NCBI GenBank assembly: GCA_964429905.1
Contig: CAYSDV010000009.1
Span: 16,378-80,377 of the forward strand
Reading direction: 5' to 3'
DNA length: 64,000 nucleotides
Source: an uncultured Treponema sp.
GTDB taxonomy: Bacteria > Spirochaetota > Spirochaetia > Treponematales > Treponemataceae
Made by a program: the position numbers and the translations under genes. Each line of letters starts with the position of its first letter. The stretch's first letter is position 1. Positions 33,959 to 48,479 of this stretch are shown here, in pieces. The notes under the pieces were generated by a model. The model was given only the letters and a program-made list of their open reading frames with translations. It was not told where the DNA came from and searched no databases.

Positions 33959-35113
33959 TTACGAAATTATTTGCTTAAATAAATACACATACAATGGTTC
34001 TGTCCGAACTTTAATTTTTGCAGTTGCTGTCATTCCTGGAACCAGGCTAATTACTTTCTTGTTCCGTTTGTCAATAAAATCAATATTATCTAAAGTTCCT
34101 GTTATTAAAAAATACGGCTGTCCATCAACTCCAAGCATGGAATCTTTTGAAATATTCAAAACGCGGCCTGTAATACTGGAAAAATTTGATGAAGGATATT
34201 TTTGAAAAGAAAGAGTAAATTCATCACCGGCATGCATTTCTGCAATATCCTGAACATTAACATTGATATAAACATTAAGTTTTCCATTAGCTTCAGGAAT
34301 AATTCTTGCAATTTTTGACTCCGAAACTATCGATTCTCCAATGTTTATTATTTGAAGTTCCTCAATATATCCATCACAGGTTGATTTTAAAACAGTTTGA
34401 TTCATCTGAAGCTGTAATTTTGCAATATTTGACTCAATTTCAGAAATAACAGACTTATTATATTCTAATTCCTCTGAATATTTAACCCGATTATCTGAAA
34501 AGAAATTCTCAAATTCAATTTTTGCACTATTAAATTTATTTTCAGCTTCCTTTAGCTCGATTTTACTTACGGTCTGCGGAAATAATTTTGTCGCTGCCTC
34601 ATATTGAAATTTACAAGATTCCATTTCAAGCTTTAATTTTTTTATTTGATTTGCAAGCGAATATATATATAATTCATTCGAATTTTGATTTTCACTCTCA
34701 TAGTTTTTCATAAAATGAAGTATAGTTTTGTCTTTTTGAACATATTCCTGATATTCTTTCAATCTTTTAAATTGCATTTCAAGTTCCTGCTTAATATAAG
34801 CATTATCAAGAACATACAACGTTTGACCGGCTATAACTTTTTGTCCGTTTTTAAATAATTTTTCTTTTATTGTTCCAGAGGTGATTGGTGTAATATAAAC
34901 CAAATCCTTAGATGGTCTGATTTGTGCATCTGATTTTATAATTACATCATAAGGTGCTATTATTATATAGATAATTATTAGTAAAATTATTCCTAAAATT
35001 ACAAATACAGATTTTTTCACAATGTCAGGAACCGAAAGTTCATAATAAGCCCGTGAGTATTTTAATTCTTTTCCTTCAAGAAAATGTATATCTTCCATCC
35101 TTATAAATTCCAA
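33959..35113 (-). CDS. HlyD-family bacteriocin secretion adaptor
   Basis: 384 aa with an N-terminal TM, lipoyl-like TSGTIKEKLFKNGQKVIAGQTLYVLD and a long coiled coil. It overlaps the ABC gene by 13 nt. Confidence 0.8.
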   Translation of the reverse strand: MEFIRMEDIHFLEGKELKYSRAYYELSVPDIVKKSVFVILGIILLIIIYIIIAPYDVIIKSDAQIRPSKDLVYITPITSGTIKEKLFKNGQKVIAGQTLYVLDNAYIKQELEMQFKRLKEYQEYVQKDKTILHFMKNYESENQNSNELYIYSLANQIKKLKLEMESCKFQYEAATKLFPQTVSKIELKEAENKFNSAKIEFENFFSDNRVKYSEELEYNKSVISEIESNIAKLQLQMNQTVLKSTCDGYIEELQIINIGESIVSESKIARIIPEANGKLNVYINVNVQDIAEMHAGDEFTLSFQKYPSSNFSSITGRVLNISKDSMLGVDGQPYFLITGTLDNIDFIDKRNKKVISLVPGMTATAKIKVRTEPLYVYLFKQIIS

Positions 35114-37230
35114 AGTTCGTAGTATTTACCTTTTAAAGCTAAAAGTTCTTTATGATTTCCACTTTCAACAATATTACCTTTATCCATAACAAAAATTATG
35201 TCTGAATTTTTTACTGTTGTAAGACGATGTGCAATCGTAATTGTTATAATCTCTTTTCCAAGCTCATCAACAACTTTTTGAAAACCTCTTTCGCTTACAG
35301 TATCTAAAGCACTAGTTGCCTCATCAAGCAAGAGTATATCTGGCTTGGATAAAAGGGCTCTTGCCAATGCAATTCTTTGCCTTTCACCGCCAGACAGGCT
35401 TGCTCCTCTTTCTGAAATTTTTGCATAATATTTATCCGGCATATCTTCTATAAAATTATCAGCCTGAGCCAACCTACATGCATACTGAACATCTTCCAGC
35501 GAATAACCAGAACGCCCCATGACAATATTTTCAAAAACCGTACCGCTGAATAAATACACTTCCTGCGGTACATAACCAATTCTGCTTCGTAAATAACCTG
35601 TATCTATATCTCTAATATCTTGATTTCCAATGAAAACACCGCCTTCATTCGCATCATAAAAATGTAAAAAAAGTTTCATTAGTGTTGATTTTCCGCAGCC
35701 GGATGCCCCGACAAAAGCTATTTTTCTGTTATCGCCAGTAGAAAAAGAAAGATCTGTAAAAACATTTCTTCTTGAGCCATACCTGAAACTTACATTTCTT
35801 AACTCAATAGGTAGAGAAATTTTTGAATTGTTTAATCCATTTTTAGATTTTAATTTTTCTTCTTCCAAGCCATAGATTTCACCAATTCTTTCCGCCGCAA
35901 CAATTGCTTCCTGTATCTGTGGCTGAAGTTCTATAAAACGTGCAAGCGGACCTGTAAAATATCCTGCAAGAGTATTAAAACTTATTAATTCACCTAAACT
36001 TAAGGTGTCTTTTAATATTAAATAGCCACCAATCCAATAAATTAAATTTGTACCAACCCCAGAAATTATACTTGTAATCAACTCCTTTACATTTCCATAA
36101 TTCCAGGCTTTTTGACCCAAATCAATATAACTTACAAGACGTCGCTCATACTCTTCTGTTGAATAACCTTGTGCATTTATGCTTTTTATCACAGGAATTC
36201 CCCCAAGCATTTCCACAAGATATGAGTTTAACTCCGCACTCTGTTCCATTTGCTCGCGATAATTCTTTACAAAAAACTTGCTGGAAGCCCAAACAACCAA
36301 GGAAGAAAGCGGAACTGTAATTATCAAAATCAAGAATAATTTGTAGCTGGTTACTCCTAAGTAAATTCCAGTAAAAACCATCATCAGCAAATCAAGCAAA
36401 GTTCCAAGTGCAATATTAGAAAGAGTTGTCCGGATCTTATCGCTATCATTAAAACGGCTTAAAATTTCTCCTGTCCTGCGGGTTTCAAAAAAGTTTAATG
36501 GTAAATATAAAACATGCTTTATGTACGAAATTGAAAGTGAAATATTTGTTTTCATTGTAAAAACACGCAAAAACTGAGACCGGCAGACTGTTAAAATCGC
36601 AGAGAAAACAGTCAGACACACAAGCGCAAAACTTAATACATGAAGGGAAGTATGAGCTTTTGAACCAATTATATCATCGACAAAAAATTTAAAATAAAGA
36701 CCGCTTAAAATACCAAACAATGAAAGAACCAAGGAAATAAGCACCATAAATGCCAATAGTCTTATATGCGCAGTAATTAATGGAACAAATTTTAATAATG
36801 CATGACCAGATTTTTGAATAACAAAATCTGGAGTTGGAGAAACAAGAATTAAATAACCTGACCAAATTTTTAAGAAATTTTCTTTTTCATAAGAAATTTT
36901 TCCAAGTGCCGGATCATAAATCCAAACGCGCTTTTCGTTTATTTTTGCAATAACAACAAAGTGATTGTTTCCATTCTGATACTGTAAATGCGCAACAAGA
37001 GGAACTGGAAACTTTTTAGAAAAAATCTGTTCATTCCCTTTTACGGCTTTTGCATCCAGATTAAGTTTTTTGGCAGCCTCAAGCATTCCTTTTAAAGATG
37101 TGCCTTCCCTGTCCGTTCCGGCAACTTCACGGATTTTCGTTATGGAAAGATGACTACCAAAGTGGCTTGCCAGCATTGCAAGACACGCCGCACCGCAATC
37201 TGTTTCATCGAATTGTTTTATGAGTTTCAT
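35101..37230 (-). CDS. peptidase C39 domain-containing ABC exporter (double-glycine leader cleavage and export)
   Basis: 709 aa. C39 catalytic Cys lies in QFDETDCGAACLAML. Walker A is GASGCGKST, the signature is LSGGERQR and Walker B is ILLLDEATS. Confidence 0.9.
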   Translation of the reverse strand: MKLIKQFDETDCGAACLAMLASHFGSHLSITKIREVAGTDREGTSLKGMLEAAKKLNLDAKAVKGNEQIFSKKFPVPLVAHLQYQNGNNHFVVIAKINEKRVWIYDPALGKISYEKENFLKIWSGYLILVSPTPDFVIQKSGHALLKFVPLITAHIRLLAFMVLISLVLSLFGILSGLYFKFFVDDIIGSKAHTSLHVLSFALVCLTVFSAILTVCRSQFLRVFTMKTNISLSISYIKHVLYLPLNFFETRRTGEILSRFNDSDKIRTTLSNIALGTLLDLLMMVFTGIYLGVTSYKLFLILIITVPLSSLVVWASSKFFVKNYREQMEQSAELNSYLVEMLGGIPVIKSINAQGYSTEEYERRLVSYIDLGQKAWNYGNVKELITSIISGVGTNLIYWIGGYLILKDTLSLGELISFNTLAGYFTGPLARFIELQPQIQEAIVAAERIGEIYGLEEEKLKSKNGLNNSKISLPIELRNVSFRYGSRRNVFTDLSFSTGDNRKIAFVGASGCGKSTLMKLFLHFYDANEGGVFIGNQDIRDIDTGYLRSRIGYVPQEVYLFSGTVFENIVMGRSGYSLEDVQYACRLAQADNFIEDMPDKYYAKISERGASLSGGERQRIALARALLSKPDILLLDEATSALDTVSERGFQKVVDELGKEIITITIAHRLTTVKNSDIIFVMDKGNIVESGNHKELLALKGKYYELWNL

Positions 37231-37297: not shown

Positions 37298-37540
37298 TTA
37301 TGACGAACTACTAGATGAACTAGAACCTGAGCCTGAACTTGAATTAGATCCTGAAGAACCACCTGAATTATTATCGCCACTTTTAGAACCACCAAAGATT
37401 GAGAAACTGCAACTAAAGCAAATACTTAAAGTGCAATCACCTCCATTAATATCCGCTAATTCATTTTCGGATAATCCATCGACAAGACCAAAACTTGCAT
37501 ATAAGTTATGATCTTCTACCGTTTTTAATAATCCAAACAC
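37298..37540 (-). CDS. double-glycine precursor peptide 1 (GTG start): Cys-rich core with a long Gly/Ser tail
   Basis: Leader MFGLLKTVEDHNLYASFGLVDGLSENELADINGG. Core DCTLSICFSCSFSIFGGSKSGDNNSGGSSGSNSSSGSGSSSSSSSS. It lies immediately upstream of the C39-ABC exporter. Confidence 0.75.
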   Translation of the reverse strand: MFGLLKTVEDHNLYASFGLVDGLSENELADINGGDCTLSICFSCSFSIFGGSKSGDNNSGGSSGSNSSSGSGSSSSSSSS

Positions 37541-37629: not shown

Positions 37630-39135
37630 TTACAATTCATTAATATTTTTCAATTTTTCAAAAAGTTCTTCATCTCTTGTAATACTTACCAAAGATTTTA
37701 AAATATCGTCATTCGTTGACCAATAATCGGGAAAAAAACCTATCCCCTCAGCTACAGGCGAGTCTTTCATCTTAAATTGAGCCAATCTTATCGAAATTCC
37801 TGAATTTCGTAATTGATAAAAGAAAATGTTTCCATAATTAAAACACCCATATGTATTTTCACCAACTAAAATTAGTTGATTTGATTTTTCAAATAATTCT
37901 TTTGCATACGCTATAACTAGTTCAGATGAAGACGCTGTCCCTTTATCAGTAACAATAATTAAGTTTCCATTAAACTTTGATTTTATTTTTTTTCTTCTAT
38001 TTTTTTCTTTGGATAGAAATTCAATTCTTTTGTTTTTTTTATATAACTTCCTTAATTCTTCATATAATTTAATATTTTCATCATTTTCCGAATAAGTCGT
38101 TTTTTCTATTTTTTGAATAGCCTGATAAATTGCTGGAGACATTAAAAATACATTATCAAAAGAATCAAAATTTTTAATTCTAGTATCAGAAACTAAAGCA
38201 TTTAAAAATTTTGAAGGATGAGAACTATGGCCCCCTCCATTTCCTCTCAAATCAAGTATTAAATTTTGTTTATCTCTAAATTTTTTTCCTGCATTTTCAA
38301 AATCTAAAAAATATTTATCTAATTTATTTTTATAGCTAGTAAACTCCTTTGGTAAATCCATAAAAGTTCTTATACCTATATACGCAGTTGTTTTTGTTTC
38401 AATTTCTTTGTACTTTACTAAATCTTCTAAGTTCTGTTGCACTGCTACAGAATTTCTATATGTACAATTCACTTCATATTTTTTCATATCTAAATAAAAA
38501 GAGATATTTACTTCTTTAAATGAACTATCTGAAAATTTTCCAACTCTGTAAATGTTTTTTCCTTCTGAAGGATATTTAAATAAAAATTCCTTTTGAATTT
38601 TCACTGGTGCATTTATACGAAAATCAGGATTCTTTGTTTTATAAACAAAGAAATTATTATTTTTTTCTAACAAATATAAATCAGAAAAAAATACACATTG
38701 ACTTTTTACAAAATTTTTACTGAAATCTAATATATCTATAAAAAAGTGAGTATCGTTTATATATTTCGCTAAATAATTATAATAATATTCAGATATTTCT
38801 GATGTGGAAATACTTTCCCTATTTTTAAACTTATTTTCACAGTCCTTTAAAAATTTATCAGAATTAAATCCATTCAGGGACATATCATTAAACCCTGCAT
38901 AGGCAGATTCTAATAAATAAATTAAATTTCTGCAATCTTCTAAAAAATCTTCATGAGATACTTCAAACTTAAAAAATCCCTGAAAATTATATTGATCACA
39001 TAAAATATCTTTATAATCAACATTTTTTTCTGAAATTAACTTTACTTCCGCCATACAATTACCACCAATGATAATAAAAAAAAGAAGGATATTAGAAATA
39101 TCAGTAAACAAAATCTTTCTTAAGATATTTTTCAT
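37630..39135 (-). CDS. secreted S41-family (tail-specific/C-terminal processing type) peptidase
   Basis: 501 aa with a hydrophobic N-terminus. Has LILDLRGNGGGHS and IIVTDKGTASSSELVIAYAK (Ser nucleophile region). Confidence 0.65.
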   Translation of the reverse strand: MKNILRKILFTDISNILLFFIIIGGNCMAEVKLISEKNVDYKDILCDQYNFQGFFKFEVSHEDFLEDCRNLIYLLESAYAGFNDMSLNGFNSDKFLKDCENKFKNRESISTSEISEYYYNYLAKYINDTHFFIDILDFSKNFVKSQCVFFSDLYLLEKNNNFFVYKTKNPDFRINAPVKIQKEFLFKYPSEGKNIYRVGKFSDSSFKEVNISFYLDMKKYEVNCTYRNSVAVQQNLEDLVKYKEIETKTTAYIGIRTFMDLPKEFTSYKNKLDKYFLDFENAGKKFRDKQNLILDLRGNGGGHSSHPSKFLNALVSDTRIKNFDSFDNVFLMSPAIYQAIQKIEKTTYSENDENIKLYEELRKLYKKNKRIEFLSKEKNRRKKIKSKFNGNLIIVTDKGTASSSELVIAYAKELFEKSNQLILVGENTYGCFNYGNIFFYQLRNSGISIRLAQFKMKDSPVAEGIGFFPDYWSTNDDILKSLVSITRDEELFEKLKNINEL

Positions 39136-40408
39136 AATGCAACTCCAAGAAATTATTCATATTTGATTTAAAAACAGGACATTGACCATTCCCATTTTGC
39201 TTTAAATTTGGACATCCCCCCTGACAATTATATAATAGAGTGCAGTTCTTACATTTATTATCAAAAATTGCCATAGATTTAATCATGTAATCTGATTCAA
39301 TTTTTAAATTTGAAAACGACTTATCCGTTAGAGAAAGAACAGCTTTTTCTACATTACCTACATCGTCCCAGCATTTGTACATATAACCTATTGGATCAAT
39401 AACATAATTATTTAATACTTGGGCACCACAATAAAAGCAACCTTTGTTTTGTAAGTACTCATTGTGAGATGTTATTCCATACTTTTTATTCAATAATTTT
39501 ATATATTCTTTTTCATCTTCAGATTTTACTTTTATTTCTGTTTTGTCTAAACAAGAATTATAATTATCAACTATTGCATAATACACATTGAAAAAATTTC
39601 CATACTTCTTATAAAGCATATTCTTAATCTTTGGATAATCGTTTTCGTTCGTTTTATCAATATTCACACGTATACTAACATTAGGCCAGTAACCGTTGAA
39701 ATTGCAATATGTATACAACATTTCAAGATTATCCATAATTCTTCCAAAGGAATCAGGATTAGAAACATGAGGTCTTCGTCTATTATGAGTTTCTTTATCC
39801 CCATCAAGAGTAATCTGAATATTTTTTAGCCAGATAAAATCAAAATATTTAACAACTTCTTCCGTCAGTAAGTATCCGTTTGTGACTATACTTTGACTAA
39901 CATCAAATCCCGCTTCATAGGTTTCATGATTAAAATGTTTAATAAAATCTAAACACAAGAGAGGCTCACCACCATACCAATCTATTTTCAAATGTTTCAC
40001 CTTTCTTTCTTTTGCAAAATCAATAATTTTTTGTGTCAAAGACAAATCCATCATTTTTGTATTTCGAAATTTTTTCTCAAAACAATACGAACATCTAAAA
40101 TTGCAATTCATTGTTGGAGCAATTATCAAATTCATGTAATCATTTTGAGAATGCATTTTTGCCCATCTAAGCAAATATAATCTATCGAATTCATCATCTG
40201 TATATTTGGAAAGAACACCTGTCTTTTGAAACTTCGCAAGAACATCACAAGGAATATTCAATTCCTTTCCATTTTTGTAATCATCTATTGATTTCTTTAA
40301 TTCATCAGAAAGTTTAAAAAAACTGTTTGAAAGCCCTGCATATAAAAGCCAGCCGTATTTTTCACTTTTAAATAAATAGTTTCTTTTTGACCAATATAAC
40401 TTATCCAT
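39101..40408 (-). CDS. radical SAM/SPASM-domain peptide maturase
   Basis: 435 aa. APTMNCNFRCSYCFE is the CX3CX2C motif. C-terminal SPASM cysteines are CFYCGAQ...YKCWDD...CKNCTLLYNCQGGCPN. Confidence 0.85.
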   Translation of the reverse strand: MDKLYWSKRNYLFKSEKYGWLLYAGLSNSFFKLSDELKKSIDDYKNGKELNIPCDVLAKFQKTGVLSKYTDDEFDRLYLLRWAKMHSQNDYMNLIIAPTMNCNFRCSYCFEKKFRNTKMMDLSLTQKIIDFAKERKVKHLKIDWYGGEPLLCLDFIKHFNHETYEAGFDVSQSIVTNGYLLTEEVVKYFDFIWLKNIQITLDGDKETHNRRRPHVSNPDSFGRIMDNLEMLYTYCNFNGYWPNVSIRVNIDKTNENDYPKIKNMLYKKYGNFFNVYYAIVDNYNSCLDKTEIKVKSEDEKEYIKLLNKKYGITSHNEYLQNKGCFYCGAQVLNNYVIDPIGYMYKCWDDVGNVEKAVLSLTDKSFSNLKIESDYMIKSMAIFDNKCKNCTLLYNCQGGCPNLKQNGNGQCPVFKSNMNNFLELHYEKYLKKDFVY

Positions 40409-41885
40409 TTTTTGTTCCGTTTTTTATATTAAAAATTTCAAAAATATTTTCCTTATTAGCCGCAACTATCAATCCACAATCTGATTTGTAATAATCAATT
40501 CCTGAATATATAGGCTTTCCAACAATTATTTTTTCATAATTTTTTTCTAAATCTATTTTTTCATTAATTTTATCTAGTTTTACAGGAATTTCTGATAAAG
40601 ATATATTTTTTAGCGTTCCTTTAAAATACGGCCATCTTTCATTCTTTTTCTTAAAAGATTCATCTGCCAATGGACATAAATTTAAAATTTCCCTTTTCAT
40701 TTCCTGATATTTTTTTGAAATAAATCTATTTGCTTTTAATTCTGAAATAATTTTTTCATAAACTGCGTATCTAATACATGGATAGATAAGGTTATCAATA
40801 AAATGGAACAGAAATGACATACCTATGTATTCTCGCATTGCCATATTGCTAGAGAGAGTTGTTCTGCTTTCTCCAATATTGCAATATTCAAACCATTCTT
40901 TTGTGTGTAAAAATGGAAAACGAGCTCTGTCAAAGGATGTAATGTCAAAATCTCTGTAATAAAATTTTCCTGTCGGCAAATATGATTCATCTAATTCAAG
41001 CATCATGTTTTGGCAATGATTTTCCAAAACAATGCCGTGTTCAGTAAATAATTTTAGAAGAATGTTTTTTATTGGACAAAAAATATATGCCTCTATAAAT
41101 TTCAAATAACTTAGTTCAGAAGCTTTCCATGCTTTGTAAATGTAACTTTGCTTTAATAAAACCGGGCTTGAAAATGATGCAACAGAACAAACCTTATTGC
41201 AAGCATTGCTATAAAACTCTTCAGGTATTTTTCTTATCACATTTGCCAGGGTTTTAATTCTTCTGTCACCAATCAATACTCTAAATCGATTAGAAAGGAA
41301 CAATGCTCTGTCAGCCGTTATTCCAAATGCAGCAATATCTTCAAAAAAATTCAAATTATCTATATTATCTACACATTTGCAAACAATTTGACTTGAGCCA
41401 TATTGTCCTAAAGCACTGCTCCAGTCTATGTGTCGAGCACCATTTGCAACATTGTCAAAAAGGGTGACTTTCGCAATAAATTTTACATTCGTTTTTAAGT
41501 TAGTAACAAGTAATGAGCGATATGAGGAAGTTGGTGTAGCGATATAAATACTGTCGTTTTCATCTATAAATTCATATTTTCCATTAATCCAAGATTTAAA
41601 AAAATCTGCAGTTTCGGGATGAACAAAAAAAGGATAATATATTTCTTCATTCTTTGATAAAAACAGGTTTTCATCAAAGAATTTCTTTTCTTCTTCCCTA
41701 TAAAGGATAAAATCATTATCAGTTGGAACTAAAAAATAAGGAAGCGCAAATATTTTTTGATTTTCAGGAAGAAAGTCAGGCTTTAAATTCATTTTAAATG
41801 AATTTTCACGCTCTGTACCTTTATATAAATCATAATTATTTAATGTTTGTTCTGCAAATATGAAATCTTGTAATATGCAACTCAT
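40401..41885 (-). CDS. IucA/IucC-like (NIS-synthetase-like) protein, function unknown
   Basis: I prefer the start MSCILQDF (M21 of the track ORF 40401..41945), which matches the start of paralog 47859..48458. Motifs are YPFFVHPETADFF, ATPTSSYRSLLV and LENHCQNMMLELDE..GKFYYRDFD. It overlaps the rSAM gene by 8 nt. Confidence 0.45.
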   Translation of the reverse strand: MSCILQDFIFAEQTLNNYDLYKGTERENSFKMNLKPDFLPENQKIFALPYFLVPTDNDFILYREEEKKFFDENLFLSKNEEIYYPFFVHPETADFFKSWINGKYEFIDENDSIYIATPTSSYRSLLVTNLKTNVKFIAKVTLFDNVANGARHIDWSSALGQYGSSQIVCKCVDNIDNLNFFEDIAAFGITADRALFLSNRFRVLIGDRRIKTLANVIRKIPEEFYSNACNKVCSVASFSSPVLLKQSYIYKAWKASELSYLKFIEAYIFCPIKNILLKLFTEHGIVLENHCQNMMLELDESYLPTGKFYYRDFDITSFDRARFPFLHTKEWFEYCNIGESRTTLSSNMAMREYIGMSFLFHFIDNLIYPCIRYAVYEKIISELKANRFISKKYQEMKREILNLCPLADESFKKKNERWPYFKGTLKNISLSEIPVKLDKINEKIDLEKNYEKIIVGKPIYSGIDYYKSDCGLIVAANKENIFEIFNIKNGTKNG

Positions 41886-41905
41886 AAACTCACCAATATT
41901 TGAAT
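41668..41905. repeat. ~240-bp near-identical direct repeat, copy 1 (partner 48241-48479)
   Basis: Aligned by eye with one mismatch and one 1-nt indel. It covers the 5' end and upstream leader of the IucA/IucC-like gene. Confidence 0.85.
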
Positions 41906-41908
41906 ATA

Positions 41909-42190
41909 TCATATAAAATGTATATATGCAAGCAAGCATATGCAAGCAAGCATTGCAAAATTATTTGGAAACTTTAGCGAAAAAATCTGTTCGTTACCTT
42001 TTGCGGCTTTTGCGTTCAGATTTAGATTCTTTGCCGCTTCAAGCATTCCTTTTAAAGATGTTCCTTGCCTGTCTGTACCAGCTGCTTCCCGAATTTTTAT
42101 AATTGAAAGATGACTGCCAAAGTGTGTTGCTATCATTGCAAGACAAGCGGCTCCGCAATCTGTTTCATCGAATTGTTTTATGAATTTCAT
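41909..42190 (-). pseudogene. truncated C39-ABC exporter (N-terminal ~75 aa only)
   Basis: MKFIKQFDETDCGAACLAMIATHFGSHLSIIKIREAAGTDRQGTSLKGMLEAAKNLNLNAKAAKGNEQIFSLKFP parallels residues 1-75 of 35101..37230, then diverges. The junction carries a duplicated TGCAAGCAAGCAT. Confidence 0.8.
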
Positions 42191-43035
42191 TTAATTATTT
42201 GTTTAATTTTAAAATTACAGTTTGCCATATGAAAATTTGTATCTTTTAAATCGATTCCTTCCATCAATTTAATATGATTTGATGTTATTCCTATTATTCC
42301 TGCTTGAGGGTCTACTGCTACCCACCCATTATTATTATCATAAAATTCAGCCCAGGCATGAAAAGAAACCTGTTGCGAAGAATAATATAGACCTGTCACA
42401 AATTTACATGGAATTCCTCTCAATCTCATTAATGCAATAAACAAATTTGTATATTCGCCACAAGTTCCTTTTTTATTTTCTAATACCCAAGAAGCAGATT
42501 TTCCATAATTTAAACCCGAACCTATTTCTTCTGCAAGTTTACGATCGTATTTTATAACAGCAACAAGGAAATTTAATATTGCTTTTGCACTCTGAAATTC
42601 TGATAATGTTGAAAACTGTAATTTATTATATATAAACTTTATATTTTCTGCATTATAGTCTATTAAATCAGAACTTTGTAAATATTTTTTTTCTTTATCA
42701 GAAAAACTATTTTTTACATATGTACTACCTTCATTATCAGTGTTACAACTCCTTGAATTATATTTATTCATTGTTCCATGTGTTTTTAATTTTATAATTG
42801 ATTTATTCTTTTTGCTTTTTATATCTATTACTGTTTGTGGATATGAATTCAAAACTAAATAATCAAATTGATTAATTTCCAATTTATAATACTTTTCTTT
42901 ATTTAAATCTGACAGAGATTGTGCATAAACAACTAAAGTCGATGAAAACAACAAAAAAATCAAAATTTTGTAAAATTTCTTTTTAATAAACAAATATTTG
43001 CTCCTTTTTCTGAATTTTTTCATAAGTTTTTTCAA
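42187..43035 (-). CDS. secreted transglutaminase-like (Cys-His-Asp) protein
   Basis: 282 aa with a signal-like N-terminus. Has KKGTCGEYTNLFIALMRLRGIP...FHAWAEFYDNNNGWVAVDP. Confidence 0.65.
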   Translation of the reverse strand: MKKLMKKFRKRSKYLFIKKKFYKILIFLLFSSTLVVYAQSLSDLNKEKYYKLEINQFDYLVLNSYPQTVIDIKSKKNKSIIKLKTHGTMNKYNSRSCNTDNEGSTYVKNSFSDKEKKYLQSSDLIDYNAENIKFIYNKLQFSTLSEFQSAKAILNFLVAVIKYDRKLAEEIGSGLNYGKSASWVLENKKGTCGEYTNLFIALMRLRGIPCKFVTGLYYSSQQVSFHAWAEFYDNNNGWVAVDPQAGIIGITSNHIKLMEGIDLKDTNFHMANCNFKIKQIIK

Positions 43036-44296
43036 GATATTCTTTTATATTTTCTTTTATAATAGGACATTTTCGTTTATTTTCAATTGCTTCATAAGGA
43101 CAGCCACCTTGACAACTAAACATCAAAAAGCAATTTTTACATTTTTCATTAAAAATAACTTGCTGATTAATAATAAAATCAGCTTCTCTTTTTAAATTAA
43201 CTTTTTTACCATCCGCCAAGGAATAAATAGCTTTATCTTTATAACCAATATCATTGTAACATTTATACATATACCCATCAGAATCTATTACATAATGATC
43301 AATAAATTGAGCCTGACAATATCCAACACCACACTGTTTTGGATAAAAATTCTCAGAATGTAGATTATATTTTGAATTAAGTAATTGATAAAATTCTTGT
43401 TCATCTTTCCTATTAAAAGAATCCTCAGCCTGACTAAGACATGAATTATAATTTTTCACAATCCCATAATATACGTAGAAAAAATCACCATACCTTTCTT
43501 CAAAATAGTTTTTGATAAAAGGATAATCTTCCTCATTTGTTTTATCAACATTTACACGAATTGATACGAATATATCATAATTTTTTGTTTTACAAAAATT
43601 ATATAAAAGATCAATATTATCCAAAATATGAGAAAATGAATCTGGATCAGAAACATGTGGTCGCCGTTTATTATGAATTTCTTTTCGCCCATCCAATGTT
43701 ATCTGAAGTCCTTTGAGTCCAATCTTTTGAAAAAACTCTAATACTTCTTCTGTTATTAAATAGCCATTTGTAATCATAACTTGTTTTAACTCAATTTTAT
43801 TTTCTTCAGCTAAAGAATTAAAATACTTTATATGCTCCAATGCTAATAATGGTTCTCCACCATACCATTCAACTCTAATCTTATTTTTGTAATTAGATTT
43901 TGCAAACTTTATAAGCTTTTCTAAAACTGTTTTTTCCATAACACGCTTATTAAACGCATTCTTTTCGTAACAATAAGAACATCGAAAATTACAATTCAAT
44001 GTCGGTGCAATAGTAAAATTTATAGTATCCTGATTTTTTTGAACTTTTAACCAATTCAATTTATATAGCTCATCAAATTCTTCATCGGTATAATTTGATA
44101 ATATTCCAGCCTTGTAAAATGATTCTATTACATCTTGCGGCAAATCACAAATGCCTATTAAATACTCATCAATTTGATTCTTCATTTTTTCGGATAAAGA
44201 AAAAAAACTATTTGAAAGCCCTGAATAAAGCAACCATCCATATTTTTCGGATTTAAATATAAAATTCCGCTTTGACCAATATAATTTTTTTTTCAT
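42983..44296 (-). CDS. radical SAM/SPASM-domain peptide maturase (paralog 2)
   Basis: 437 aa. Has APTLNCNFRCSYCYE and C-terminal CQAQ...YKCYND...CKNCFLMFSCQGGCPY. Confidence 0.85.
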   Translation of the reverse strand: MKKKLYWSKRNFIFKSEKYGWLLYSGLSNSFFSLSEKMKNQIDEYLIGICDLPQDVIESFYKAGILSNYTDEEFDELYKLNWLKVQKNQDTINFTIAPTLNCNFRCSYCYEKNAFNKRVMEKTVLEKLIKFAKSNYKNKIRVEWYGGEPLLALEHIKYFNSLAEENKIELKQVMITNGYLITEEVLEFFQKIGLKGLQITLDGRKEIHNKRRPHVSDPDSFSHILDNIDLLYNFCKTKNYDIFVSIRVNVDKTNEEDYPFIKNYFEERYGDFFYVYYGIVKNYNSCLSQAEDSFNRKDEQEFYQLLNSKYNLHSENFYPKQCGVGYCQAQFIDHYVIDSDGYMYKCYNDIGYKDKAIYSLADGKKVNLKREADFIINQQVIFNEKCKNCFLMFSCQGGCPYEAIENKRKCPIIKENIKEYLEKTYEKIQKKEQIFVY

Positions 44297-44298
44297 TT

Positions 44299-45747
44299 TT
44301 ATTCCTTTTGTATTATTTGAACTAAAATATCATTTTGAAAACATAAAACATCATCTTGTTGTGTTTTATAATAATCAAAATTTATGTTATTATCTTTTTT
44401 CCAAACTTGAATCTTTTTAGAATAATTTTCCATAATAAAATTATTAATTTTTTGTAATTCAACAGGTATTTCTGTTTTATGTATTTTTGAAAACATTTCT
44501 TTTCCAAAACAATAATATTTCTCATCGTAAAATTGTACATCCGACATTAATTCTTTAATTTTACTTCTAATTTTGCCTCCCATCTTCTCATATATTTCAT
44601 TCATTTCATTTTTTGTAATTATGTTATTTTTCTCTGCAGAGATTAAACATGGTCGAATCAAATTATCTAAAAAATGATTAAACAAATTAATGCCAATATC
44701 TTCCCTTGCACTTGTATTAGCATAAAGAGTTGTTCTATCTGGTCTATTTTTTATATAACTATTCCACAGGTTAGGAAAAATAAATGGAAATCGGGCTCTA
44801 TCTAACGCAATTAAATCAAAATCTCTATAAAAAAACTTCCCCGTAGGGATATTTTTTTCATTTATTTCCAATAATGTATTTTGACAATGAAATTCTAAAG
44901 AAACCCCTGTCTTTACAAGCAAGTCAATAATTATCTGAAAAAGAGGATTAAATACATTATTTTCAAAAAAAATCTGAAATATTTCTCCACTGTTTTTATA
45001 ACCAATAGATAATAAAGAATCTTTATCTACAAGACTCATATACGATGCAAAACTTAAACATTTACTTTCACTATTAAAAAAATCATTCGGTATCAATCGA
45101 ATGACATTTCCAAGTGTTGAAATATATCGACTCCCAAATTTTATCTTAAATCTATTTGAAAGAATCATAGGAAATTCACCACTTATTCCAAAGGCTCCAA
45201 TATCCTTAAACACTTCTAGATTTAAATTTGATAAAACATCCGTCACAATTTTTGATTGTTCATATTGACCAGAAGCCGATTTCCAATCTATATGACGAGA
45301 ACCATTTGCGATGTTATCAAAAATAGAACATTTTACCATAAAGTATTTATCTGTATTTTCATTACGAACAATAAGCGAACGGTACGAAGAACTCGGTGTT
45401 GCAATATATTCACTATTTTCAGAACCAATAAATTTATATTTATTATTTATCCAAGACAAAAACATCTTTTCCGTAGCTGGATGTATAAAAAATGGATAAC
45501 ATTTTTGATTTTTAAAATTATGTTTTAAGTTCTCTTCAAAAAAATCAGAGTAATCTTTTTCGAATATAAACTTATCTTGCTCAATAGGTATTATAAAATA
45601 TGGTAATTTAAAAGATTCTTGATTTTCAGGCTTGTATTCATCTGCAATATTTATATAAAAAAAATCTTTCCATTCTTTTGACTCATAAAGATTATAATTA
45701 TTTAACCTTTGTTCACATTCTACAAATAAACTTAACTTTTTATTCAT
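44299..45747 (-). CDS. IucA/IucC-like (NIS-synthetase-like) protein, paralog 2
   Basis: 482 aa. Motifs are YPFFIHPATEKMF, ATPSSSYRSLIV and LEFHCQNTLLEINE..GKFFYRDFD. It ends 2 nt before the rSAM start. Confidence 0.45.
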   Translation of the reverse strand: MNKKLSLFVECEQRLNNYNLYESKEWKDFFYINIADEYKPENQESFKLPYFIIPIEQDKFIFEKDYSDFFEENLKHNFKNQKCYPFFIHPATEKMFLSWINNKYKFIGSENSEYIATPSSSYRSLIVRNENTDKYFMVKCSIFDNIANGSRHIDWKSASGQYEQSKIVTDVLSNLNLEVFKDIGAFGISGEFPMILSNRFKIKFGSRYISTLGNVIRLIPNDFFNSESKCLSFASYMSLVDKDSLLSIGYKNSGEIFQIFFENNVFNPLFQIIIDLLVKTGVSLEFHCQNTLLEINEKNIPTGKFFYRDFDLIALDRARFPFIFPNLWNSYIKNRPDRTTLYANTSAREDIGINLFNHFLDNLIRPCLISAEKNNIITKNEMNEIYEKMGGKIRSKIKELMSDVQFYDEKYYCFGKEMFSKIHKTEIPVELQKINNFIMENYSKKIQVWKKDNNINFDYYKTQQDDVLCFQNDILVQIIQKE

Positions 45748-45796: not shown

Positions 45797-45958
45797 TCAG
45801 CCTCCTGCAGTTGCAAAACAATAACAACCACCACCAGGAACACCACCGGTATAACAAGAACCACCAGATATGTCATTAAGTTCTGAATTTGAATTAACTT
45901 CTTCTAGTCCAAAAACATTCAAACTTCCAGCCTTTAATAAAAACACTTCTGAATCCAT
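45797..45958 (-). CDS. double-glycine precursor peptide 2 (53 aa, not in the ORF track)
   Basis: Hand translation gives MDSEVFLLKAGSLNVFGLEEVNSNSELNDISGG / SCYTGGVPGGGCYCFATAGG. SD is AAGGAGG, 7 nt upstream of the ATG. The leader is similar to that of precursor 1. Confidence 0.7.
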   Translation of the reverse strand: MDSEVFLLKAGSLNVFGLEEVNSNSELNDISGGSCYTGGVPGGGCYCFATAGG

Positions 45959-46344: not shown

Positions 46345-47856
46345 TTACAATTTATTAATATCCTTCAATTTTTCAGAAAGTTCTTTATCTCCAGTAATAT
46401 TAACAAGCGCCTTTAAAATATCTTCGCTTGTTGTCCAATAATCTGGCATTATGCCAAAACCTTCGTTGTTTTTCTCTAAATTATATGAAAACGTCCCCAT
46501 GTGTAATGCAATACCTGAATTCGGAAGTTGATAGCAGAAAATGTTTCCATAAGCCGTACATCCCATGGTATTTTCCCCTAAAACAATTAACTGTTCTGAG
46601 TGTGAAAATATTTTTTTTGCATAAAATACAGTTGATTCCGCAGATGAAGCCTTATTTTTACCTGTTAGAATTATTAATTTCCCTTCATATTTTGCTGATT
46701 GTATCTTAAGTTTGTTTTTTTTGTTATTCTTGACAACAATTTTTTTATATTCATTTTTTAAAAGTTTTTTATCTAAATCAAATTTTTCTAACAAATTACT
46801 GTTATCAGTCAGACAGTAATTTTTAAACCAAGTTTCAGCCTGAATGATAGCAGGAGATACATAGTCTATTCTGTTTTCTTCATTTAAAATTGTTTTTTTT
46901 AATTTATTCACATTATTCTTTGTTGTATTATCAGAACAATTTTTTTCTGCGTAAAAAAGATTGGATAAAAATCTAAATGTATAATAATCATTCCCACCGC
47001 CATTTGTACGCAAATCTAAAATGACACATTTTTTCTTGCCATATCTTGCAGAAACAGAACTAAGTTTTTTGTAATTTTCATCCACAATTTTTCTTAATGG
47101 ATTTGATTTTTCTAAATCAATTAAAGTTGGAACAAAAATATAAACCGAATTTCTTGTTTCAATTTCTTTATAAAGACCCAATTTATTACAAGATAAATGA
47201 ACTGTATCAATATTACACAATATTTTTCGTTGCATTCCAGAATATGAAACATTCACCCACATTTCATTTTTATTTAAACTTGCCATAGAACCAATTCTAT
47301 AAACATTTTCTCCTTCCGAAGGATATAAAAACAGATTTTCTTTTTCGATTTCAAGATTTTCACCAATACTAAAACTTTTATTATCAGATTTTTCTACAAC
47401 ATAACTATCATTATTTTTTTTAACATAAACATTTGAATACAAAACCCTGTACTTTATTATCAGCTGTTTTGCAAAATCCTTACTTTCAATACAAAAATGA
47501 GAATCCTGAATATATGGGGCTAAAAAATCATATATAAACTGGCTTAAATCAGATACGTTTATATTTTCTTTACCTATGTACAAATTCTTAAATTTTTCAA
47601 TTATCAGGTCTATTTCTAAACCACATTGTACAGCGTCATCATAGCCAGCATAAGCCGATTTCAAAAGATAAATCATCATATCTAGATCTTCTATAGCTTG
47701 ATTAAAAAAAATTTCTTCTTTAAACCATTTTTGGTAACCAAAAAAGTCACAGCGTACATCACGATACTTACACGGTTCTGATAAGATTACTTTAAAATTT
47801 GCCATACAAACTCCACATGCAATCAAAAAAACAAAAATTAACAATAGTTTTTTCAT
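46345..47856 (-). CDS. secreted S41-family peptidase (paralog 2)
   Basis: 503 aa. Signal is MKKLLLIFVFLIACGVCMA. Has VILDLRTNGGGND and ILTGKNKASSAESTVFYAK. Confidence 0.65.
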   Translation of the reverse strand: MKKLLLIFVFLIACGVCMANFKVILSEPCKYRDVRCDFFGYQKWFKEEIFFNQAIEDLDMMIYLLKSAYAGYDDAVQCGLEIDLIIEKFKNLYIGKENINVSDLSQFIYDFLAPYIQDSHFCIESKDFAKQLIIKYRVLYSNVYVKKNNDSYVVEKSDNKSFSIGENLEIEKENLFLYPSEGENVYRIGSMASLNKNEMWVNVSYSGMQRKILCNIDTVHLSCNKLGLYKEIETRNSVYIFVPTLIDLEKSNPLRKIVDENYKKLSSVSARYGKKKCVILDLRTNGGGNDYYTFRFLSNLFYAEKNCSDNTTKNNVNKLKKTILNEENRIDYVSPAIIQAETWFKNYCLTDNSNLLEKFDLDKKLLKNEYKKIVVKNNKKNKLKIQSAKYEGKLIILTGKNKASSAESTVFYAKKIFSHSEQLIVLGENTMGCTAYGNIFCYQLPNSGIALHMGTFSYNLEKNNEGFGIMPDYWTTSEDILKALVNITGDKELSEKLKDINKL

Positions 47857-47858
47857 AT

Positions 47859-48458
47859 CTAGTAAATAAAATCCTTCTTTAATGATTTTTCATAATGCCG
47901 TTCCAAAAATTGACTTATATCATTTTTAAAGACATGACATATTCGTTTATTTTCAAGAGAATGCTTTGGGCATCCTCCTTGACAACCAATAAACATAAAA
48001 CAATTTTTACAAACTTTATCAAACATTGACTGAGATTTTATAATATAATCAGACTCTGCAAGGACATTATTGATTTTTTTATCATTTAAATTATAAACGG
48101 CTTTATTCTTGATTCCGATGTCTTCCCAGCATTTATACAAAAATCCTTCTGCATCAACAACATAATTATTCAGTATCTGAACTCCACAAAAGCAGTTTCC
48201 AAACCATTGTGAATAAAAAACTTTATCCTCAATTCTATTTTTTTCATCAAAGAATTTCTTTTCTTCTTCCTTATAAAGGATAAAATCATTATCAGTTGGA
48301 ACTAAAAAATAAGGAAGCGCAAATATTTTTTGATTTTCAGGAAGAAAGTCAGGCTTTAAATTCATTTTAAATGAATTTTCACGCTCTGTACCTTTATATA
48401 AATCATAATTATTTAATGTTTGTTCTGCAAATATGAAATCTTGTAATATGCAACTCAT
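47859..48458 (-). pseudogene. chimeric ORF: N-terminus of an IucA/IucC-like gene fused to the SPASM C-terminus of a radical SAM gene (deletion scar)
   Basis: Residues 1-72 are about identical to residues 21-92 of track ORF 40401..41945. The rest (FGNCFCGVQILNNYVVDAEGFLYKCWEDIG...CKNCFMFIGCQGGCPKH...) aligns with the last ~125 aa of the rSAM/SPASM proteins. Confidence 0.8.
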
Positions 48459-48479
48459 AAACTCACCAATATTTTGAAT
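48241..48479. repeat. ~240-bp near-identical direct repeat, copy 2 (partner 41668-41905)
   Basis: See copy 1. Confidence 0.85.

What the first reader, a model, noticed from the sequence alone, without database searches (positions are those of the whole stretch)
40401..45747. Two ~490-aa unknowns carry the hallmark motif series of IucA/IucC (NIS siderophore synthetase) enzymes
Both paralogs show four motifs in the same order.
- YPFF(V/I)HP(E/A)T, compare the (I/V)P-V-HPWQ entry motif.
- ATP(T/S)SSYRSL, compare P-T-x-S-x-R-T.
- LE(N/F)HCQN(M/T)(M/L)LE, compare E-x-H-G-Q-N-x-L.
- GKF(Y/F)YRDFD about 20 aa later, compare RD.

This series is what I remember for the IucA/IucC adenylating amide/ester-forming ligases such as AcsD, IucA, IucC and DesD. 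In a peptide-maturation operon such an enzyme could adenylate a carboxylate (peptide C-terminus, Asp/Glu side chain, or a citrate-like acid). It could then ligate that carboxylate to an amine or hydroxyl, giving a macrolactam/lactone, a C-terminal cap or a small-molecule conjugate. The comparison motifs are recalled from memory, not aligned to an HMM.
Basis: inference. Interest (0 to 1): 0.8.

Follow-up and report, generated by a model that had tools for sequence, protein, structure and literature searches.

The report
Siderophore-synthetase-like ligases in peptide-antibiotic operon
Two neighbouring genes in a Treponema-type genome encode shortened but apparently active relatives of siderophore-building (IucA/IucC) enzymes, always paired with a radical-SAM peptide-modifying enzyme in a bacteriocin-like operon, a use of this enzyme family I found no report of.

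Summary
Window 44299-45747(-) (482 aa, "A") and 40401-41885(-) (494 aa, "B") are 43% identical paralogs.

- **Sequence.** A passes Pfam IucA_IucC. A broader family profile hits only NIS synthetases in the PDB (AsbB 1.5e-14). hhalign to K. pneumoniae IucA gives 96.4% probability.
- **Structure.** AlphaFold models of both (pLDDT 89-91) match only NIS synthetases in their top 50 Foldseek hits (E about 1e-13).
- **Active site.** All ten ATP/Mg-site residues listed for DesD/AcsD, plus the AcsD general-base Glu, are invariant in 30/30 family members.

They are not ordinary siderophore enzymes. The N-terminal thumb domain is missing, the C-terminal ~110 aa are different, and no siderophore supply or uptake genes lie nearby.

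In every related locus with enough flank, the gene is immediately followed by a radical SAM/SPASM maturase. The set also holds double-glycine-leader precursors, S41-like proteins and a C39-ABC/HlyD exporter.

The clade is tiny, unnamed and found in Treponema/Spirochaetaceae assemblies. The most likely role is an ATP-dependent carboxylate-adenylating ligase that decorates the ribosomal peptide. The exact reaction is inferred, not shown.

The parts
44299..45747 (-). IucA/IucC-like ligase A (482 aa), lacking the thumb domain
   Evidence: Pfam IucA_IucC 26.0 bits, above GA 25. AF2 pLDDT 89.4. Foldseek top 50 hits are all NIS synthetases, E 1.4e-13 and weaker. hhalign to IucA gives probability 96.4, with A residues 1-367 aligned to IucA 128-492. 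ATP-site residues H89, S121, R123, K139, R151, R217, H287, Q289, N290 and D309 are invariant.
40401..41885 (-). IucA/IucC-like ligase B (494 aa), paralog of A
   Evidence: 43% identical to A. Pfam FhuF-type C-terminal half 30.8 bits, above GA 25.2. AF2 pLDDT 90.9. Foldseek top 50 hits are all NIS synthetases, E 2.7e-14 and weaker. It carries the same invariant residues: H89, S121, R123, K139, R151, R218, H290, Q292, N293 and D312.
42983..44296 (-). Radical SAM/SPASM peptide maturase A (437 aa). Its start overlaps the stop of ligase A by 4 nt.
   Evidence: Pfam Radical_SAM 61 bits. SPASM TIGR04085 46.6 bits, above cutoff 27. The best named model, Clo7bot, scores 210 bits, far below its cutoff of 600. 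The CxxxCxxC motif is CNFRCSYC.
39101..40408 (-). Radical SAM/SPASM peptide maturase B (435 aa). Its start overlaps the end of ligase B by 8 nt.
   Evidence: Pfam and NCBIfam hits.
45797..45958 (-). Precursor peptide A (53 aa): leader ...SELNDISGG, core SCYTGGVPGGGCYCFATAGG
   Evidence: Small ORF. It is called as a gene in four independent assemblies directly upstream of ligase A. It has a double-glycine leader.
37298..37540 (-). Precursor peptide B (80 aa): leader MFGLLKTVEDHNLYASFGLVDGLSENELADINGG, core DCTLSICFSCSFSIFGGSK... ending in a Ser-rich tail ...GSGSSSSSSSS
   Evidence: Small ORF. Homologous precursors sit at the same position in L007, L009, L014, L021, L024, L025 and L028.
46345..47856 (-). 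S41-like secreted or lipoprotein-type protein A (503 aa)
   Evidence: Pfam Peptidase_S41 43 bits. There is about one copy per precursor in related loci. The SxxE and DxRxNxGG motifs are conserved, but the canonical Lys position holds C, S or A.
37630..39135 (-). S41-like protein B (501 aa)
   Evidence: Pfam Peptidase_S41 55.7 bits.
42187..43035 (-). Transglutaminase-core protein with N-terminal signal/TM segment (282 aa). It occurs in cassette A only.
   Evidence: Pfam Transglut_core 84.9 bits. It is present in L001-L003 but absent from most other loci.
35101..37230 (-). C39-peptidase ABC exporter (709 aa)
   Evidence: TIGR01193 peptide cleavage/export ABC transporter, 604.7 bits, above cutoff 523.85.
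33959..35113 (-). HlyD-type periplasmic adaptor (384 aa)
   Evidence: TIGR01843 125 bits, which is below its cutoff. It is conserved next to the ABC gene in related loci.
41909..42190 (-). C39 peptidase gene fragment (93 aa), a recombination scar
   Evidence: Pfam Peptidase_C39 75.6 bits, covering profile positions 3-72 of 133. It is 84% nt identical to 37006-37230.
47859..48458 (-). Chimeric remnant ORF (199 aa): N-terminal ~75 aa of ligase B fused to a SPASM C-terminal fragment
   Evidence: A 234-nt perfect repeat, 41668-41901 = 48241-48474. SPASM TIGR04085 50 bits.

Best explanation
**Shown.** Both genes encode members of the IucA/IucC (NRPS-independent siderophore synthetase) superfamily.
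- They keep the finger and palm domains.
- They keep the full ATP/Mg2+ site and the residues used by AcsD for both half-reactions: Arg305 for adenylate formation, His444, and the Glu442 general base.
- They lack the N-terminal thumb domain and carry a different C-terminal ~110 aa.
- They form a small clade seen in Treponema/Spirochaetaceae assemblies. Its members are always followed directly by a radical SAM/SPASM maturase.
- The maturase sits inside an operon with double-glycine-leader precursor peptides, S41-like secreted proteins and a C39-ABC/HlyD exporter.

**Inferred.** The enzyme is a cytoplasmic tailoring enzyme of the ribosomal peptide.
- It would use ATP to adenylate a carboxylate, then transfer the acyl group to an amine, hydroxyl or thiol. 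This happens before the exporter removes the leader.
- The only carboxylate common to all 18 predicted cores is the C-terminal alpha-carboxylate.
- The last residues of the cores are small and flexible (G/S/A/P-rich, or poly-Ser).
- My preferred reaction is therefore activation of the peptide C-terminus, followed either by capping with a small nucleophile or by intramolecular cyclisation. DesD macrolactamises a long flexible chain through its terminal acyl-adenylate in the same way.
For: **Superfamily membership**
- Pfam hits for both proteins.
- The A2 profile against the PDB hits AsbB 1.5e-14, AlcC 3e-10, IucC 1e-9, IucA 1.4e-9, AcsD 6e-9 and DesD 1e-8, and nothing else.
- hhalign to IucA gives probability 96.4, E 1.1e-9.
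- Foldseek on both models gives probability 1.00 and TM about 0.5-0.58, with the top 50 hits all NIS synthetases.

**Active site**
- The DesD paper lists H153, S275, R277, K291, R303, R370, H440, E442, N443 and D460 as conserved ATP contacts.
- The aligned residues are 30/30 invariant in the clade and 40-41/41 in the wider set.
- The AcsD general base E442 and R305 correspond to E285 and R151, both invariant.

**Peptide role**
- A radical SAM gene is immediately downstream in every locus with enough sequence. The precursor lies between the two genes in L023. This covers the window twice plus L001-L014, L021-L025, L027, L028 and L031.
- The stop and start codons overlap by 4 nt (A) and 8 nt (B).
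- The ligase and radical SAM trees are broadly congruent.
- The window holds two ligase/maturase pairs, each beside its own precursor type.
- There are no siderophore supply or receptor genes in the window.

**C-terminus argument**
- 6 of 18 cores have no Asp/Glu and 11 of 18 have no Lys.
- DesD macrolactamisation via a terminal acyl-adenylate is the precedent.
Against: - No experiment or complex model links the enzyme to the peptide. The link is genomic only.
- The core sequences share no obvious conserved nucleophile.
- The C-terminal residue varies (S, G, Y, R, Q, A, M).
- The acid-binding loop has A147/N148 where citrate-using AcsD has T301/N302. This fits a small polar acid at least as well as a peptide terminus.
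- The substrate-binding C-terminal region of canonical enzymes (AcsD R501, K563, R576) cannot be mapped.
- TM-scores of about 0.55 and rmsd of 5-8 A show substantial divergence.
Confidence: 0.62

Rival explanations
1. The enzyme adenylates a small primary-metabolite acid (citrate-like). It then esterifies or amidates a residue of the peptide, for example Ser hydroxyls of the poly-Ser tail. AcsD makes O-citryl-serine in the same way. The result would be a peptide carrying a carboxylate metal-binding or uptake handle, a functional analogue of siderophore-microcins.
For: - AcsD esterifies citrate with the hydroxyl of L-serine and uses E442 as its base. E285 is invariant here.
- The acid-loop positions A147/N148 resemble AcsD T301/N302 and IucA T/N. 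They do not resemble the Met/Gly of DesD or Leu/Gly of SbnC.
- B-type precursors end in ...SGGSSGSSSSSSSSS tails. Class IIb microcins are defined by a Ser-rich C-terminus that carries the siderophore.
- The acid loop NVANGARHIDW is almost invariant across enzymes paired with very different cores. This fits a constant small co-substrate.
Against: - A-type cores have no Ser-rich tail, and one core (YCVGYGGLPAR) has no Ser or Thr at all.
- The AcsD residues that hold citrate from the C-terminal region (K563, R576) have no mappable counterpart.
- There is no receptor or uptake gene to suggest a Trojan-horse logic.
- The hosts are anaerobes carrying FeoAB.
Confidence: 0.22
2. They are genuine small-molecule siderophore (or other metabolite) synthetases that merely sit next to a bacteriocin operon. 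The peptide is not their substrate.
For: - They belong to a superfamily whose characterised members (every PDB match) build siderophores.
- The catalytic residues are intact.
- A barely passes the Pfam model that genome-mining tools use for NI-siderophore calls.
Against: - The thumb domain is missing.
- There is no decarboxylase, N-hydroxylase, acyltransferase, TonB receptor or siderophore-binding protein in the window or in related loci.
- The gene is coupled to the radical SAM gene in every locus and co-diverges with it.
- The gene was duplicated together with the maturase and a new precursor.
- The next-closest relatives (tier 2) lie in unrelated contexts. The operon association is therefore clade-specific and not accidental.
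Confidence: 0.08
3. The proteins are catalytically silent scaffolds or chaperones that present the precursor to the radical SAM enzyme, with ATP binding retained at most for regulation.
For: - Tight coupling to the radical SAM gene.
- No RiPP recognition element was identified in the ligase.
Against: - Every residue needed for ATP/Mg binding, adenylate formation and base catalysis is invariant across a clade that is otherwise only about 40% identical. This is the signature of selection for catalysis.
Confidence: 0.05

Closest known systems
NIS synthetases of the IucA/IucC family: AcsD and IucA (type A), SbnC (type B), DesD/AlcC/AsbB/IucC/NcdF (type C)
   Same: - Finger and palm fold: Foldseek probability 1.00, E 1e-13 to 1e-14.
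- All conserved ATP/Mg contacts are present, plus the AcsD Arg305 and Glu442 equivalents.
- The expected chemistry is therefore carboxylate adenylation followed by amide or ester formation.
   Different: - Only 11-16% identical.
- About 100 aa shorter, with the N-terminal thumb domain absent. That domain is part of the usual dimer interface.
- The C-terminal ~110 aa end in a small beta-rich domain instead of the usual substrate-binding loop region.
- There is no siderophore pathway context. The genes are embedded in a radical SAM RiPP/bacteriocin operon in anaerobic spirochaetes.
Class IIb (siderophore) microcins such as MccE492, MccH47 and MccM
   Same: - Double-glycine leader and a C39-ABC plus HlyD exporter.
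- B-type precursors have a Gly/Ser-rich C-terminus ending in Ser.
- An enzyme from siderophore biosynthesis is encoded in the operon.
   Different: - The cores carry 1-3 Cys and are accompanied by a radical SAM maturase.
- The leaders are about 34 aa.
- No MceC/D/I/J-type or enterobactin genes are present.
- The siderophore-type enzyme is NIS-like and not catecholate-related.
- A-type precursors have no Ser tail.
- The immunity-gene position is occupied by S41-like proteins.
Radical SAM/SPASM thioether RiPPs: ranthipeptides and sactipeptides (PapB, CefB, CcpM, SCIFF, Clo7bot families)
   Same: - SPASM maturase with its best hits to these models.
- Cys-containing cores and a leader peptide.
   Different: - Scores are far below every equivalog cutoff, for example 210 vs 600.
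- One associated core has no Cys.
- None of these classes is known to include an IucA/IucC-type enzyme (own knowledge). Literature searches found nothing.
Other ATP-dependent carboxylate-activating RiPP enzymes: lasso cyclase (Asn-synthetase-like), ATP-grasp graspetide ligases, MccB (E1-like), PEARLs
   Same: - The proposed logic is the same: ATP activation of a peptide carboxylate followed by attack of a nucleophile (own knowledge).
   Different: - The fold and ancestry are unrelated. None of these belongs to the IucA/IucC superfamily.

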